A DNA stretch of 64,000 nucleotides from the human T2T-CHM13v2.0 reference genome, Homo sapiens: NCBI RefSeq assembly GCF_009914755.1, contig NC_060930.1, one strand, 5' to 3'. Below, in pieces: positions 37,211 to 46,720 of the stretch (the first letter of the stretch is position 1; the number at the start of each line of letters is the position of its first letter). The notes beneath the pieces are model-generated. The model did not search any database. It was not told where the DNA came from and saw nothing but the letters and a program-made list of their open reading frames with translations. The position numbers and the translations under genes are program-made.

Positions 37211-37297
37211 TTAATCCTGTTAGAATTTCCTTCTTTTGAACTCTGTTTAAAAAAAAAAAAATCTTTCCAGAAAGTAGGAAGTTATAATTTCTATTTT
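37211..37297 (-). pseudogene. Candidate terminal pseudo-exon
   Basis: Acceptor tttttgtttgtctttcag|; degenerate IE..SYF/GKIF...QD-TAA, interrupted by a poly-T run. Confidence 0.3.
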
Positions 37298-37572
37298 CTG
37301 AAAGACAAACAAAAATTCTAAATAGGATATTTGAAACAGACCCACTGTATCCTAAATGGAAGTGCTATTAAAAGGAAATGCTATTAAAATAAGATTTCAT
37401 ATATTACTGATAATTCATAATGAATTTTAGGATTCCATTCAATTACATACTAAAAATTACATTTTTTATAGTGGCAATGTACTTTTATCAGTATTCTTAT
37501 TTGACAGTCAATTTGAGTTCAGTGTAAACAAATAGGACTTAGAAAAATAATTTGTAACTCAAGATGCTGTAC

Positions 37573-37684
37573 CTCATCCTATAATTGTTGTTTTGTAATA
37601 TTCCTTCTCAGGAATATGGGCTAAGGATATCTCAACTCTGTCAGATTTGTTGATAAGAATTTAATAGTAAGGAGTTCTTATAGC
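37573..37684 (-). pseudogene. Pseudo-exon, second half of YccV-like domain
   Basis: Acceptor tgctttttatag|, phase 0 continuing the previous exon; AIRTPYY*ILINKSDRVEISLAHIPEKE matches the YccV P-x-Y-x-I/V-L...Y-I/V-P-E-x pattern; TAA at 37663-37661; donor GAG|GTACAG. Confidence 0.75.
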
Positions 37685-37879
37685 CTATAAAAAGCATGAA
37701 TTATGAGATCAAATGTGGGAGTTACTATATGATTATCTGCATTACAAAATGAAAGCAAATGCTTTATTTATTCCAACAAAAAAAGACCTATATAAATTAG
37801 TTTAAGCTAACATTTAGACATTTACTATTACATATATGGTATTTGCAACCAAATCACTGAGTTTGTTGTTGTCGTTGTT

Positions 37880-38488
37880 TGAGGCTGTTGCTCTGTCACC
37901 CAGGATGGAGTGCAAGTAGCTCAATCATAGCTTACTGCAGCCTAAAAACTCCTGGGCTGAAGAAATCCTCTCACCTCAGCCTTTTAAGTAGCTGAAACAT
38001 TAGGTGCACACCACCAGGCCTGGCTAATTTTTTATTAGTGATAAGGTCTTGCTATGTTGCCCAGGCTGGTCTCAAACTCCTGGCTTCAAGCAGTCCTGCC
38101 TCAGCTTCCCAGAGTGCTGGACTACAGGCATGAGCCACTGCACCCAGCCCCAAATAGCTTCTACTCATAACCTAGTGTGGCCTAAATTTATTTAAAATGC
38201 CCGGGTAGGCCAGGCACGTTGGCTCACGCCTGTAATCCCAGCACTTGGGAGGCCGAGGTAGGCAGATCACTTGAGGTCAGGAGTTCGAGACCAACCTGGC
38301 CAATATATTGAAACCCTGTCTCTTCTAAAAATACAGAAGTTACTCAGGCGTGGTGGCGTGTGACTGTAATCTCAGCTACCGGGGAGGCTGAAGCAGAAGA
38401 AACGCTCGAACCTGGGAGGCAGAGCTTACAGTGAGCCGAGATCGCACCACTGCACTTCAGCCTGGGTGACAAAGTGAGACTCCATCTA
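37880..38488. mobile_element. Head-to-head inverted Alu pair (37880-38149 minus; 38208-38488 plus) followed by (TACA)n
   Basis: Opposite-orientation Alus ~58 bp apart. Confidence 0.85.
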
Positions 38489-38663
38489 CATACATACATA
38501 CATACATACATACATACATACATAAAATGCCCAGTATCTTACAAGACTGTAGTTCACAGTGGGTAATTCAAATCAGACACTGCTCTTCAAGAGAGGTAAT
38601 ATTAATAGAAATCTTTCAAGAAGGATTGTTTTCTACTATTAAAACAATAAAACTCTTATAAAC

Positions 38664-42822: not shown

Positions 42823-43419
42823 CTAAGCAGTATATGAGGAAAAAAGATGAAAAACAAGGTTACTAACTTTGCTGTGCAAATTATTTTAGAAATATTTACC
42901 CTTAAAATGCTAGGTGTTTTTCTAGTTACTGTGTGAATCTGTCACTAATTTTTATTTTTTGGTATTGGATTGAAAACTAATTAGAAACATTACCATATAA
43001 TTAGCTTTCTTCCTAGTTATACCTATTTTTATTAAAATAAATGATAAATAGCACAATTTCCTCTGATTCAAGCACCATATTTTCCACAAAACTTGGGGTC
43101 ATATAACAGGTATCTTACATTTGTGTGTCCAGATAAAAGCCCACCTGGTATTTGTGATGAAAATAAAGAGGAAGCTTCTACTGCAAGAAAAGCTTTCTTC
43201 ACTAGGAACAGAAGATCCTTTCCTGAGGAAAGGGAAGTGAAATTCCAGAGACCCATTTAATCCATAGTTTCTGTGTTAAAACTAAAACTTTAGAAGCTGT
43301 TACTGAGAATGTTTATTTTGTCTGTGTGTTGTTGAATACACACACACAATGAAAAATTGAGGTAGCCTAATTATATTAGATGTTTTGCTTAGTAACTGAG
43401 ATAACACTTGTTTTTATTT

Positions 43420-44343
43420 ATTTATTATTATTTTTTTTTGAGACAGAGTCTCACTCTGTCACCCAGGCTGGAGTGCAATGGCGCAATCTCCATTCACTGC
43501 AACCTCCGCCTCCCGGGTTCAAGCCATTCTTCTGCCTCAGCCTCCCCAGTAGCTGGGACTACAGGCGCATGCCTCCAGGCCCAGCTAATTTTTGTGTTTT
43601 TAGTAGAGACGGGGTTTCACCATATTGGCCAGGCTGGTCTCAAACTCCTGACCTCTTGATCCGCCCGCCTCAGCCTCCCAAAGTGCTGGAATTACAGGCA
43701 TGAGGCACTGCACCCGGCCTTTTATTTTTTATTTTATTTATTTATTTATTTATTTATTTATCTATTTTTTGAGACAGAGTCTCACTCTGTTGCTCAGGCT
43801 GGAGTGCATTGGTGTAATCTTGGCTCACTGCCACCTCTGCCTCCCGGGTTCAAGCAATTCTCCTGCCTCAGCCTCCCGAGTAGCTGGGAATACAGGTGCC
43901 CGCCATCATGCCTGGCTAATTTTTTTGTATTTTTAGTAGAGATGGGGTTTCACCATATTGGTCAGGATGGTCTTGAACTCCTAACCTCGTGATCCACCCG
44001 CCTCAGCATCCCAAAGTGCTGGGATTAAGGCGTGAGCCACCACACTCGGCCATTATTTTTTATTTTTTTAGAGCAGGGTCACACTCTGTTGCCCAGGCTG
44101 GAATGCAGTGGTGCCATCATAGCTCACTGTAACCTTGAACACCAGACTCAAGTGATCTTCCTGTCTCAGCCTCTTGAGTAGCTAAGACTCAACCAACACA
44201 CCTGGCTAATTTTCCTATTTTTAGTAGAGATGAGGTCTCACTATGTTGCCCAGGCTGGTCTCAAACTCCTGGCCTCAGCTTATCCTCCCACCATGGCCTC
44301 CCAAAGTGCTAGGATTACAGGTGTAAGCCACCAGACCCAGCCA
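43420..44343 (-). mobile_element. Three tandem antisense Alus
   Basis: Consecutive Alus at ~43420-43719, 43720-44052 and 44053-44343 separated only by T-rich tails. Confidence 0.9.
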
Positions 44344-44830
44344 AGATGGCACTCATTGGTCAGTGTTCAATAGGTGCCTACATATTGCTAGCGTGTGCAC
44401 ATCTACCAGAAGAACTTCTGGGTTTAGACACATAATGGGGTGGAAAATCAATGTGCAATATTTTTTTAAGCCACCCTCAGCTGACTCTTCACCAACAGTA
44501 GTCTAATAGGTAGAAGATGGTGAGTCATCATCTGCCTTTCAAGTTCTTTCCCAACAACAGGTTTATTTCTTGATGTATGTGCAGTCCTAGAGCTGAAGGA
44601 GATAGATAGGATCAATTCTGGGCCCACCTTCTGTCTAATCTCAAACCTCTTCTACAGCATCCTTGATGATTTGTCAGCCAGCCTTTGGCATTAGAACGTT
44701 GATCAGAAACTGTGAGGAGTAATAGCATGAAAGGCCAGTCTTGGGACTACAGAGAAAATATGAAGTGATAAGAGGGAAAAGTGTATACTGAGAAGGAAAA
44801 CTAATGATTTAAGATGGCGAAGCAAGCAAA

Positions 44831-45063
44831 TACAGATGATCCTAACTTACGATAGTTCAATTTATGATTTTTCAACTTTATGGTGGTGCAAAAGCCATAC
44901 ACATTCAGTATATACCTCCACTTATGGCAGGAATATGTCCAGACAAGCCCATTATAAGTTGAAAATATCCTAAGTCAAAAACACACTTCTGACTTAGCAA
45001 TATTTTCAATTTACATTGAGTTTATCCAGACATAATCTCATGGTGAATCAAGGAGCAGTTGTA
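44831..45063. mobile_element. Tigger-family MITE
   Basis: tacagatgatcctaactta ... gaatcaaggagcagttgta inverted ends with TA. Confidence 0.55.
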
Positions 45064-46299
45064 TCAGATTGGCCTGAAGCTTAGCACAGCCTCCTTCTCT
45101 TTCCCTGAAATGTAAAGATTTTAACCTAGCTTCTCTCAGCAATTTTCATAAAGTACTTCAACGTTCCCCTGAATGAAAACATAATTAAAGAGACATGTAT
45201 TTGTATGCTCTTTTCACTTCCTGATTCCAAGCCGAAAAGCTGGGCTATTTAAGGGCATGACAAATGCAGAATTGCACAACTCTAAATCTGAACAGCACTG
45301 CTGGGTCCCCACATTTCACTAGGAGAAGGGCCTTTAATTTGCTCCAGCAACAATAAAAAGTGGTACATAGGCTAAGATGAAGTCCAGATGCCAAGGGAAC
45401 CTATGAATTACTTTAAGACACATGGGAACCAATTACAATGTGTGGAGTTTATTTGGATCTTGATTCAAACACGCTAAATCAACAAATATTTATAGCAGGA
45501 GACATTTGGAAATTTGAATACAGACCAGATGTTTGATGTTATTTCTTTTCTTTTTTTGCTCACTCTCAGCAGAATCAGTGATGTTATTTCTATATGTTGG
45601 ATATTTTTCATAATTTTTTAATGGCATCTTTTCATTACAGTATTCTGTTTCCCACAAAAATACAGGAAAAGGGTGGAAGGGAAACAATGAAAAAGTTCAG
45701 GTGGGTCACAAACATGGACACAAGGAGTCTGAAAGGCAGGCCTTGACATTTGTCTGAATAATACTAACGATGACCCTTCGGAGTTTCACGGGAGAGGAGG
45801 GTTGCCAGACTGTAATGGAGAGAAACTGGACTTAGTTGCTAATTAGGATGATGGTGCAAGGTCCATGACAGGGGATGAGGGAATGCCTGCTCGGGGAGGG
45901 GAAAAGGGGACTGGACGGAGGGCACGGCAGGATGGCCTAGGGAGGACGGGCGGGGGCCTATCAGTTACAAGAGGAAGGAGAAAGAGGATACTGGTTTTCC
46001 TCTGCATAAAAAACGCGATGGATTCTCAAGAATTTATTGAAAGTCTGTGTGTCCACCATAGTCCAGGATATTTTGGAATATTCAAGGGAAATACAAATCC
46101 AAGAATTTAGCTCAGGAATCAGCATCAGAACAGAATCCCCGAAGAGTAAACTATTCATGGAAAACAGTAGACTGATAACATTTGAAAAACTGATTTCCCA
46201 TAGAAACAATAGTTACTGTTTGACGAATTATACAACGTAGACCTAGGTCGTGCGATAGCTACAAAATACCTAAGGAAATGGACTAGGTCGTAACAAGAA

Positions 46300-46720
46300 A
46301 AAGTGATATCAAGCCCGGGCAGAAGGGCGCATTCTCGGCGCGGAGGGCGGAGCCTTTCCCGGAGTGGCGGCGGATGACCCGGGCTCCCGCTCCTCACCTC
46401 GGCGTGGGGCGCAGGCGGCGGCCGCAAGGACCGCGGATGCTTGAATCGCGCTTCTCGCCGGCTGGGACTGCCCCAGACACGCACACCCTCCCGACCTCCG
46501 CCCTGTCGCAGTTCCAGGGCGCTCCGCGCTGTCATGATTGCTGGGTGCGCGCTCCGTGCTGGGACAGCCGCGCACCAACAGCGGAGGGCGTTAGCACCCC
46601 AAGACGCTGCTGCAGGGGTCTGAACCGCTCCTTGGCCTACTGGCACCGGGTCCTGGACGAAATCTACCGCGGTCCAACTGAGCTTTATCTTGTGCGGTGA
46701 CGCCCATGCCTAGGTCTTGA
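46300..46720. promoter_or_regulatory. Orphan CpG island, probable promoter/first exon of the minus-strand pseudogene
   Basis: CpG-dense, non-repeat, GC boxes (GGGCGG); minus-strand donor GAG|GTGAGG at 46398/46397. Confidence 0.75.

What the first reader, a model, noticed from the sequence alone, without database searches (positions are those of the whole stretch)
37211..46710. Hidden dead gene: multi-exon unitary pseudogene for a membrane-anchored YccV/HspQ-like domain protein, antisense and tail-to-tail with IRAK1BP1
Seen: the minus strand 38783-38664 reads FDVGFMIIHR*HGYLGVIVGWDVEEGFQELLKQKYPSDKQ and ends at a GT donor. The next phase-matched exon, 37684-37573, reads AIRTPYY*ILINKSDRVEISLAHIPEKE. 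Upstream are more AG/GT-bounded unique-sequence blocks (39480-39399, 40147-40041, 42822-42711), the last encoding a hydrophobic LQLCVLLAAVSIWHFIS. The ORF track misses all of this because of the stops. Established: FxVGxVxxHxxxGYxGVIVGWD...PxYxIL...YxPExN is the YccV-like (hemimethylated DNA-binding/HspQ) domain signature, found in humans in FBXO21 and POLDIP2. Inference: introns rule out a retrocopy, and the lack of F-box or ApaG sequence suggests a third, small anchor+YccV gene that was lost in the lineage leading to this genome. From memory, such proteins exist in fish and invertebrates; this is unverified.
Basis: partly seen in the sequence, partly recalled or inferred. Interest (0 to 1): 0.92.

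Follow-up and report, generated by a model that had tools for sequence, protein, structure and literature searches.

The report
Dead HspQ-like gene beside IRAK1BP1
Antisense to the tail of human IRAK1BP1 lies the decayed, intron-containing remnant of a small YccV/HspQ-domain gene that marsupials, birds, turtles, amphibians and a ray still carry intact, so it is a gene lost on the way to humans.

Summary
The minus strand 38804-38664 passes Pfam's own threshold for YccV-like (28.8 bits, cut-off 22.8). Genome-wide it is one of only two exon-level YccV hits in this human assembly; the other is FBXO21.

A database search found intact proteins of about 180-245 aa. They have an N-terminal hydrophobic segment, a complete HspQ-like domain and a conserved tail. 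They occur in two marsupials, many birds, turtles, a frog, a caecilian and a ray. None of the listed hits is from a placental mammal.

A profile of that family hits the window only on the minus strand, at four colinear places. A fifth, short piece lies between them. The relic spans 42793-36796. It has seven premature stops, three frame-breaking length changes, no ATG at the orthologous start, and two lost splice sites.

It is not a copy of FBXO21: similarity is much lower and the intron positions differ. In a tree it sits beside the marsupial genes on a long branch.

Synteny in other vertebrates could not be tested. This is a new member of a known kind: an old unitary pseudogene.

The parts
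42671..42793 (-). Relic of exon 1, the N-terminal hydrophobic segment (…LQLCVLLAAVSIWHFISPGYDNDSAQS…). GTT stands where orthologs have the start Met. There is an in-frame TAG at 42781-42779. No GT follows at the predicted donor.
   Evidence: tblastn with P0012 gives E 0.001 and with P0007 E 0.013 at 42766-42674/42686. The family HMM covers positions 9-65 with E 4.3e-4. Sequence. Stops and flanks.
40584..40626 (-). Relic of the short exon encoding (R)NRYIENEDEIYAYF, where orthologs have RNWY…H.YF. It is open, with ag before it and gtacgt after it.
   Evidence: tblastn gives E 0.71 (P0007) and 1.4 (P0009), colinear with the other pieces. The sub-profile's best hit in the 3.8-kb interval between exon 1 and exon 4 falls here. 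It was reached by 4 of 500 shuffles and by 0 of 26 real control intervals. Splice dinucleotides.
38664..38831 (-). Relic of the exon encoding the first half of the YccV domain. It carries TAA at 38828-26, TGA at 38825-23 and TGA at 38753-51, with one codon missing and one extra relative to orthologs. There is no AG at the predicted acceptor (TC). The donor gtttat is kept.
   Evidence: Pfam PF08755: 28.8 bits. Family HMM: 40.3 bits, E 8.2e-14. BLASTP against the turtle protein: 24/41 identical, E 4e-14. Whole-genome hits. Stops.
37573..37684 (-). Relic of the exon encoding the second part of the YccV domain (AIRTPYY*ILINKSDRVEISLAHIPEKE…). It carries TAA at 37663-61, with one codon missing and two extra. 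A 2-nt deficit near the 3' end creates TGA at 37576-74. The ag acceptor and the gtacag donor are kept.
   Evidence: tblastn E 7e-5. Family HMM positions 154-199, E 1e-4. Sequence. Stops and flanks.
36796..36894 (-). Relic of the last exon (VFHAKLEA / FIKYDATKYSMNP*LKK / YPCD + TAA). It has a 1-nt deficit after 36871 and TAG at 36829-27 where orthologs have W. It also has a 4-nt excess in an A-run. The terminal TAA at 36798-96 stands at the orthologous stop. The ag acceptor is kept.
   Evidence: tblastn E 0.013. Family HMM positions 193-213, E 0.028 before the frames were corrected. Frame-corrected alignment. Stops.
33765..38804 (+). Last exon of IRAK1BP1 (coding ends at 34035; the rest is 3'UTR). 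It overlaps relic exons 5 and 6 and most of exon 4 on the opposite strand.
   Evidence: Hub annotation supplied with the finding, combined with the relic coordinates.
38694..38812 (+). Exon of another IRAK1BP1 transcript model, lying antisense over relic exon 4. It is bounded by tttcag and gtaagt.
   Evidence: Hub annotation; plus-strand sequence.

Best explanation
Window 42793-36796, minus strand, holds a unitary pseudogene. It is the decayed human ortholog of a small vertebrate gene whose intact product is about 180-245 aa. That product has an N-terminal hydrophobic segment (a signal-anchor or a signal peptide), a short linker, one compact HspQ/YccV-like domain, and a conserved C-terminal strand ending …IYPHD. 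NCBI names these proteins 'F-box only protein 21-like', although they have no F-box.

The gene was present in the ancestor of jawed vertebrates and in the therian ancestor. It lost function on the lineage leading to humans. This most likely happened before the placental radiation (inferred). Since then it has drifted neutrally, accumulating stops, frameshifts and splice-site losses.

It makes no protein now. Its last three exons sit antisense inside the IRAK1BP1 3'UTR.

By analogy with the YccV domains of FBXO21, POLDIP2, HspQ and ClpF, the living protein is probably a tethered recognition or adaptor module for regulated proteolysis. This is inferred and was not tested.
For: 1. Domain. The relic exon passes the Pfam gathering score. 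It is the second of only two exon-level YccV hits in the genome.

2. Intact relatives. A library scan gave four single-stretch hits, P0007, P0008, P0009 and P0012, at 51-59% identity. They share the hydrophobic N-terminus and the tail.
- A word-index search with P0007 returned 64 proteins, 62 of them named. All named ones are from marsupials (Petaurus, Sarcophilus), turtles, birds, a frog, a caecilian and a ray; 0 of 64 are placental.
- A profile search gave 249 hits, of which 120 are listed; 0 of the 120 are placental.

3. Colinearity. The family HMM searched against all six frames of the 64-kb window gives four hits with E<0.1. All are on the minus strand and in protein order; the next hit has E 2.1. 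A fifth short exon has an empirical p of about 0.01 and intact ag/gt.

4. Exon boundaries.
- Isoforms that skip a 29-30-aa block (P0007, P0014, P0044) place a boundary just before RNWY. This is where the human ag acceptor lies.
- P0012 diverges right after …DKE, where the human gt donor follows …DKQ.
- The 5-aa insert in P0036 and P0045 after GLEV marks the boundary kept as GAG|gtacag and ag|GTA in human.

5. Decay. There are seven premature stops, three frame-breaking length changes, no ATG at the start, and two lost splice sites.

6. No live copy. Marsupial and turtle proteins each hit only this locus in the human genome (E 5.6e-8 and 3.9e-7). The next best hit is the FBXO21 last exon at E 0.6.

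7. Not an FBXO21 copy. FBXO21 exons score 14.8 and 15.3 bits on the family HMM, against 40.3 for the relic exon. BLASTP gives 7/11 identical against FBXO21 and 24/41 against the turtle protein. The FBXO21 introns lie elsewhere.

8. Phylogeny. The relic is sister to the marsupials (support 85/69). Its branch is 0.99, against 0.33-0.49 for the marsupials.
Against: - Synteny was not tested. No vertebrate genome other than this one is reachable with these tools, so orthology rests on the tree, on uniqueness and on gene structure.
- Support for the human+marsupial clade is moderate (85/69). The relic is a long branch, which the tree tool itself flags as unsure.
- The alternatively spliced second exon of the family was not found in human.
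- The exon 1 donor and the exon 4 acceptor cannot be identified.
- Exon 3 and exon 6 are individually weak (tblastn E 0.7 and 0.013).
- Absence from placentals is read from protein lists, not genomes. 129 of the 249 profile hits were not shown.
- The exon-wise genome scan also missed POLDIP2. Papers describe POLDIP2 as having a YccV-like domain (PMC7647994, passages). So 'no other copy' holds only at this sensitivity.
Confidence: 0.88

Rival explanations
1. The relic is a duplicated fragment of FBXO21 (or POLDIP2), not a separate lost gene.
For: NCBI names the intact relatives 'F-box only protein 21-like'. FBXO21's last exon shares the HPD…YFS…YP.D tail with the family.
Against: The family HMM scores FBXO21 exons at 14.8 and 15.3 bits, against 40.3 for the relic. 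BLASTP of relic exon 4 gives 7/11 identical against FBXO21 and 24/41 against the turtle protein. FBXO21 has introns before YGY and after …YAAQ. The relic and its family have them after …DKQ and after GLE. No POLDIP2 chain appeared in the PDB sequence search, even at E<=10. The relic also carries the family's hydrophobic N-terminal exon, which is not an F-box.
Confidence: 0.02
2. The relic is a pseudogene of the family but not 'unitary' in the strict sense. It would descend from an old paralog, or the loss would be recent and lineage-restricted, with some placental mammals still holding an intact gene.
For: Synteny and other mammalian genomes were not examined. Only 120 of 249 profile hits were listed. 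Retention of 29 of 42 invariant residues gives a rough neutral divergence of only about 0.17 per site. That figure does not force a loss as old as the marsupial split.
Against: 0 of 64 hits and 0 of 120 listed hits are placental, although placental genomes are heavily annotated. The relic groups with the marsupials, as the species tree predicts. There is a single locus in the genome. Decay is heavy in every exon.
Confidence: 0.07
3. The sequence is a gene relic, but it is still recognisable because it was taken over for another function: IRAK1BP1 3'UTR or alternative-exon sequence, or an antisense RNA.
For: Relic exons 4-6 lie inside the annotated IRAK1BP1 3'UTR exon. A plus-strand exon model at 38694-38812, with tttcag and gtaagt sites, sits on relic exon 4 (hub annotation).
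Against: The pattern looks neutral. Invariant family residues are lost at 31%. There are seven stops and about seven length changes in 545 nt. Exons 1 and 3 lie outside the main UTR exon and are kept about as well. No conservation or expression data were available.
Confidence: 0.1
4. The similarity is chance in AT-rich unique sequence.
Against: Family HMM E 8.2e-14 for exon 4. Genome-wide E values are 5.6e-8 and 3.9e-7. There are five colinear, same-strand pieces in protein order with kept splice sites.
Confidence: 0.005

Closest known systems
Small 'F-box only protein 21-like' / 'Hemimethylated DNA-binding domain-containing' proteins of non-placental vertebrates (for example Sarcophilus P0013, Petaurus P0007, Chrysemys P0019, Anas P0016, Ascaphus P0053, Hemitrygon P0073)
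   Same: The exon order is the same. The relic shares the hydrophobic N-terminus, the YccV core and the C-terminal YDG.KY.M.PWL..IYPHD tail. Identity is about 50% over some 160 aligned positions (81/159 with P0007). The relic is sister to the marsupial members.
   Different: The human copy is dead: stops, frameshifts, no start codon and two lost splice sites. The family's alternatively spliced second exon is not detectable. In four literature searches no paper on these proteins was found.
FBXO21 (human, contig 12), C-terminal YccV-like domain
   Same: It is the only other exon-level PF08755 hit in the genome. It shares the GY..VI.GWD core and the HPD…YFS…YP.D tail. Its C-terminal part, which contains the YccV-like domain, binds a substrate, ASK1 (PMC4887211, passages).
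   Different: FBXO21 is a large F-box protein. Its introns are at other positions. Its similarity to the family profile is low, 14.8 and 15.3 bits. It is alive.
POLDIP2/PDIP38 N-terminal YccV-like domain
   Same: It belongs to the same Pfam family. It is described as an SH3-like beta-barrel that docks to CLPX (PMC7647994, abstract and passages).
   Different: POLDIP2 has a large beta2/beta3 insertion and a C-terminal DUF525/ApaG domain (same passages). The relic gave no sequence match to it in the PDB search. The small family matches the compact bacterial model end to end.
Bacterial HspQ (YccV), TIGR02097
   Same: The intact relatives match the whole 101-position model at 64-72 bits, above its cut-off of 38. 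The relic exon matches positions 4-30 at 21.5 bits.
   Different: HspQ is a free cytosolic protein of about 105 aa. It has no N-terminal hydrophobic segment and its gene has no introns. It is described as a Lon activator and ClpS inhibitor (PMC7647994, passages).

Membership tests
Pfam PF08755 YccV-like (hemimethylated DNA-binding / HspQ-like domain) | Sequence score above the curated gathering threshold (22.8 bits) | tested here: met
   28.8 bits, E 1.6e-6, for 38804-38664 with X at the stop. 27.7 bits in the genome scan. The second exon alone gave no hit.
Pfam PF08755 YccV-like (hemimethylated DNA-binding / HspQ-like domain) | SH3-like beta-barrel fold | not testable with these tools
The PDB sequence search with the family profile gave no hit at E<=0.01.
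Small vertebrate 'FBXO21-like' YccV proteins | N-terminal hydrophobic segment …LQ(I/L)C.LL.A.PAQY… | tested here: met
   Relic …LQLCVLLAAVSIWHFIS… at 42766-42716. tblastn E 0.001-0.013 and HMM E 4.3e-4. Hydropathy of the family segment is 1.4-2.1 in 9 of 9 members checked.
Small vertebrate 'FBXO21-like' YccV proteins | Conserved C-terminal tail YDG.KYIMQPWL..IYPHD followed by the stop | tested here: met
   The relic reads KYDATKYSMNP*LKK, then, after a frameshift, YPCD plus TAA.
Small vertebrate 'FBXO21-like' YccV proteins | Same exon boundaries as intact members | tested here: inconclusive
   Boundaries inferred from isoform differences coincide with the human ag/gt sites at four places. The exon 1 donor and the exon 4 acceptor are not recognisable.
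Small vertebrate 'FBXO21-like' YccV proteins | Groups inside the family in a tree, at the position the species tree predicts | tested here: met
   Sister to the two marsupial members, support 85/69, on a long branch.
Unitary pseudogene | Disabling lesions in the coding sequence | tested here: met
   Seven premature stops, three frame-breaking length changes, and GTT at the start position.
Unitary pseudogene | Introns kept (not a processed copy) | tested here: met
   Five pieces are spread over 6 kb, with ag/gt kept at six of eight internal sites.
Unitary pseudogene | No functional copy of the same gene elsewhere in the genome | tested here: met
   P0007 and P0019 each hit only this locus. The next best hit is the FBXO21 last exon at E 0.6. 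Sensitivity is limited, since the scan is exon by exon.
Unitary pseudogene | Intact ortholog at the syntenic position in other species | not testable with these tools
   Intact proteins exist. No vertebrate genome context can be fetched, and searches for papers that might place the gene next to IRAK1BP1 found nothing useful.
FBXO21 gene copy | Shared intron positions and close similarity to FBXO21 | tested here: not met
   The intron positions differ. FBXO21 exons score 14.8 and 15.3 bits, against 40.3 for the relic. BLASTP gives 7/11 against FBXO21 and 24/41 against the turtle protein.

The most novel reading that the evidence does not exclude
Jawed vertebrates ancestrally had a third, so far unstudied YccV/HspQ-domain protein: a short, N-terminally tethered adaptor related to the substrate-binding end of FBXO21. 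It was discarded at the base of placental mammals. Its corpse then became part of the unusually long IRAK1BP1 3'UTR and of an antisense alternative exon. Placental loss of this tethered proteolysis adaptor would be a lineage-defining change. The relic may now also contribute to IRAK1BP1 regulation.
Probability: 0.12. Interest if true: 0.55.

Novelty: new member of a known kind. Interest (0 to 1): 0.42.

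Why it matters
It adds a gene to the list of ancestral vertebrate genes that humans, and probably all placental mammals, have lost. The RefSeq table supplied for this window has no row for it.

It also draws attention to an uncharacterised vertebrate family. 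This is a compact HspQ-like domain on a hydrophobic N-terminal tether. Automatic annotation mislabels it 'F-box only protein 21-like', although it has no F-box.

YccV domains in FBXO21, POLDIP2, HspQ and ClpF all act in regulated proteolysis. The living gene in chicken or opossum is therefore a tractable way to ask what placentals gave up.

For annotation, it explains coding-like similarity inside the IRAK1BP1 3'UTR.

Tried and rejected
- Word-index search with the 47-aa relic exon, longer proteins only: nothing found.
- PDB sequence searches with the relic exon and with the family profile: no YccV chain.
- The family's alternatively spliced exon: the sub-profile finds nothing on the minus strand between exon 1 and exon 3. 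The only weak hit (E 0.58) is on the plus strand.
Their position, between exons 3 and 4, also fits no exon of the aligned isoforms.
- Own-genome search with an alignment: not accepted. It was replaced by a single turtle protein.
- Literature: seven searches. None returned a paper on this family, on a pseudogene at this locus, or on synteny. GENCODE and Ensembl pseudogene tracks could not be consulted.
- The sigma-70/terminator scan is meaningless for a human locus and is disregarded.
- Dating: only a rough estimate was possible. 29 of 42 invariant residues are kept, giving about 0.17 substitutions per site (sampling range about 0.11-0.24) under my assumption of about 2.2 non-synonymous sites per codon. 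Turning this into years relies on recalled neutral rates and is not a tool result.

Full report
**1. Observation**

The minus strand 37684-37573 also reads as written, with one TAA. It has ag before it and gt after it. The three upstream blocks are ag/gt-bounded, and 42822-42711 holds the quoted hydrophobic string in its third frame.

The slightly longer stretch 38804-38664 was translated with X at the stop. It scores 28.8 bits on Pfam PF08755 YccV-like (curated cut-off 22.8, E 1.6e-6). The second exon alone gives no Pfam hit.

A six-frame scan of the whole 3.1-Gb assembly with PF08755 returns two exon-level matches at E<=10. One is FBXO21 on contig 12 (63.8 bits). The other is this site (27.7 bits, genome-wide E 0.007). 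The scan did not report POLDIP2, which papers describe as having a YccV-like domain (PMC7647994, abstract and passages). Its sensitivity to split domains is therefore limited.

**2. Intact relatives exist**

- A word-index search with the 47-aa relic found nothing.
- A full HMMER pass over 1.84 billion representative proteins gave 10 hits at E<=0.001. Six are repetitive multi-stretch matches that I disregard. Four are single-stretch matches at 51-59% identity: P0007, P0008, P0009 and P0012.
- Their sequences show a short protein with a hydrophobic N-terminus, a YccV domain and the ending …YDG.KYIMQPWL..IYPHD.
- A search with P0007 returned 64 proteins with E<=0.001, 62 of them named by a source. 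They come from two marsupials (Petaurus, Sarcophilus), turtles, many birds, a frog (Ascaphus), a caecilian (Rhinatrema) and a ray (Hemitrygon). None is from a placental mammal (lineages checked).
- A profile search gave 249 hits. Among the 120 listed, none is placental; the other 129 were not shown.
- Six members match PF08755 at 83-92 bits over the whole model and carry no other domain. Three members match the bacterial HspQ model TIGR02097 end to end at 64-72 bits.
- The N-terminal 19-residue window has a Kyte-Doolittle mean of 1.4-2.1 in 9 of 9 members checked. This fits a signal-anchor or a signal peptide, and I cannot tell which.

**3. Anatomy of the human relic**

tblastn with four family proteins and an HMM built from a 16-member alignment (A1) were run against all six frames of the window. 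They agree. The HMM gives only four hits with E<0.1, all on the minus strand and in protein order:

| Window coordinates | Profile positions | E-value |
|---|---|---|
| 42769-42599 | 9-65 | 4.3e-4 |
| 38801-38547 | 104-189 | 8.2e-14 |
| 37678-37538 | 154-199 | 1e-4 |
| 36880-36818 | 193-213 | 0.028 |

The next hit has E 2.1 and lies on the other strand.

A fifth piece, 40626-40584, reads (R)NRYIENEDEIYAYF where orthologs have RNWY…H.YF. It is weak by tblastn (E 0.7 and 1.4). It is, however, the best sub-profile hit in the 3.8-kb interval where it should lie. That score was reached by 4 of 500 shuffles and by 0 of 26 real control intervals. The piece has ag before it and gtacgt after it.

The family's alternatively spliced 29-30-aa exon was not found.

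Reading each piece in the frame set by the orthologs gives the following:

- **Exon 1 (42793-42671).** GTT stands where orthologs have Met, and there is a TAG at 42781-79. No GT is present at the predicted donor.
- **Exon 3 (40626-40584).** It is open.
- **Exon 4 (38831-38664).** TAA and TGA stand where orthologs have E and S, and there is a further TGA at 38753-51. One codon is missing and one is extra. TC stands where the acceptor should be. The donor is kept.
- **Exon 5 (37684-37573).** There is a TAA at 37663-61. One codon is missing and two are extra. A 2-nt deficit creates TGA at 37576-74. Both splice sites are kept.
- **Exon 6 (36894-36796).** There is a 1-nt deficit after 36871 and a TAG where orthologs have W. 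An A-run carries a 4-nt excess. The reading then continues YPCD and ends with TAA at the orthologous stop.

In total this is 545 nt of relic with seven premature stops.

**4. Exon boundaries**

- P0007, P0014 and P0044 skip a block between …TE and RNWY. This places a boundary where the human ag lies.
- P0012 leaves the family right after …DKE, where human has …DKQ|gt.
- P0008 leaves the family upstream of ESTHIHSP, near the exon 3 / exon 4 junction.
- P0036 and P0045 carry a 5-aa insert after GLEV. There human has GAG|gtacag and ag|GTA.

This is consistent but indirect.

**5. Not a copy of FBXO21 or POLDIP2**

- On the family HMM the two FBXO21 exons score 14.8 and 15.3 bits. The decayed relic exon 4 scores 40.3.
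- BLASTP of relic exon 4 gives 24/41 identical with the turtle protein (E 4e-14). With FBXO21 only an 11-residue core aligns, 7/11 identical.
- FBXO21's introns fall before YGY and after …YAAQ. Those positions differ from the ones in the relic.
- No POLDIP2 chain matched the relic, even at E<=10.
- Marsupial and turtle proteins each find only this locus in the human genome (E 5.6e-8 and 3.9e-7). The next best match is the FBXO21 last exon at E 0.6.

**6. Orthology and age**

In a maximum-likelihood tree of 13 family members plus the relic (X at all breaks), the relic is sister to the two marsupials. Support is 85/69. The relic's end branch is 0.99, against 0.33-0.49 for the marsupial path. The tool flags the relic as a long, unsure row.

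Overall identity is 81/159 with Petaurus and 81/162 with Chrysemys. Of the family-invariant columns covered by the relic, 29 of 42 keep the residue. For nearly invariant columns the figure is 12 of 23.

I assumed about 2.2 non-synonymous sites per codon. On that assumption the retention corresponds to roughly 0.17 substitutions per site since constraint was lost, with a sampling range of about 0.11-0.24. About seven length changes in 545 nt fit neutral decay.

From recalled human-lineage neutral rates, this is of the order of 10^8 years. That is compatible with a loss before the placental radiation, and the protein lists suggest the same. This dating is inference, not a tool result.

**7. Surroundings**

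By the hub annotation, the IRAK1BP1 last exon runs 33765-38804 on the plus strand, with coding ending at 34035. Relic exons 5 and 6 and most of exon 4 therefore lie antisense inside the IRAK1BP1 3'UTR. The two stop codons are 2.8 kb apart, tail-to-tail.

Another IRAK1BP1 transcript model has an exon at 38694-38812, bounded by tttcag and gtaagt. It lies directly over relic exon 4 on the other strand. The region is 30-45% G+C.

**8. How it worked and what it is now**

Shown: the living gene encodes one compact HspQ-like domain behind a hydrophobic N-terminal segment.

Inferred: the protein is tethered or secreted through that segment and uses the YccV domain as a binding module.

Known YccV domains act in regulated proteolysis. 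FBXO21's C-terminal part, which contains the domain, binds ASK1 (PMC4887211, passages). POLDIP2's domain docks to CLPX, HspQ modulates Lon and ClpS, and ClpF works with ClpS (PMC7647994, passages; bioRxiv 10.1101/2020.05.19.105320, passages). A role as an adaptor is therefore the best guess, perhaps 50%.

The human locus makes no such protein.

**9. Novelty**

The RefSeq table supplied has no row for this locus. Seven full-text searches found nothing on the family or on the pseudogene. GENCODE, Ensembl and TOGA tracks could not be checked.

Unitary pseudogenes are a well-known kind, so this is a new member. It is of moderate interest because the lost family is itself unstudied and mislabelled.

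Synteny and cross-mammal lesion mapping remain the decisive open tests.

Noticed in passing
window 38694-38812 (+): An annotated exon of an alternative IRAK1BP1 transcript lies antisense almost exactly over relic exon 4. It has strong plus-strand splice sites (tttcag before, gtaagt after). The dead exon's complement appears to have been recruited as a cassette exon.
   Followed up: partly
family alignment A1, columns 67-100: The living family has an alternatively spliced 29-30-aa exon (…W.SF.KSYLSLDAW…). It is skipped in the 'X2/X3' isoforms of a marsupial, a turtle and an owl. No trace of it was found in human between relic exons 1 and 3.
   Followed up: yes
G000 contig 12, loci L001 and L004: FBXO21's last exon shares with the small family a tail motif (HPD..YFS…G..YI……YP.D) beyond the Pfam core. 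This suggests that the small gene and the FBXO21 C-terminus are old paralogs with different intron positions.
   Followed up: partly
whole-genome PF08755 scan: POLDIP2 was not reported by the exon-wise six-frame scan, although papers describe it as having a YccV-like domain. The 'own genome' family scan can miss domains split by introns or carrying large insertions.
   Followed up: no
hit P0023: One turtle member (Platysternon) is named 'myosin regulatory light chain 2, smooth muscle minor isoform-like' by its source. Many bird members are named 'FBX21 protein, partial'. The family's automatic names are unreliable.
   Followed up: no
window 38487-38524: A perfect (TACA)n microsatellite of 9.5 copies lies in the intron between relic exons 4 and 5.
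   Followed up: no
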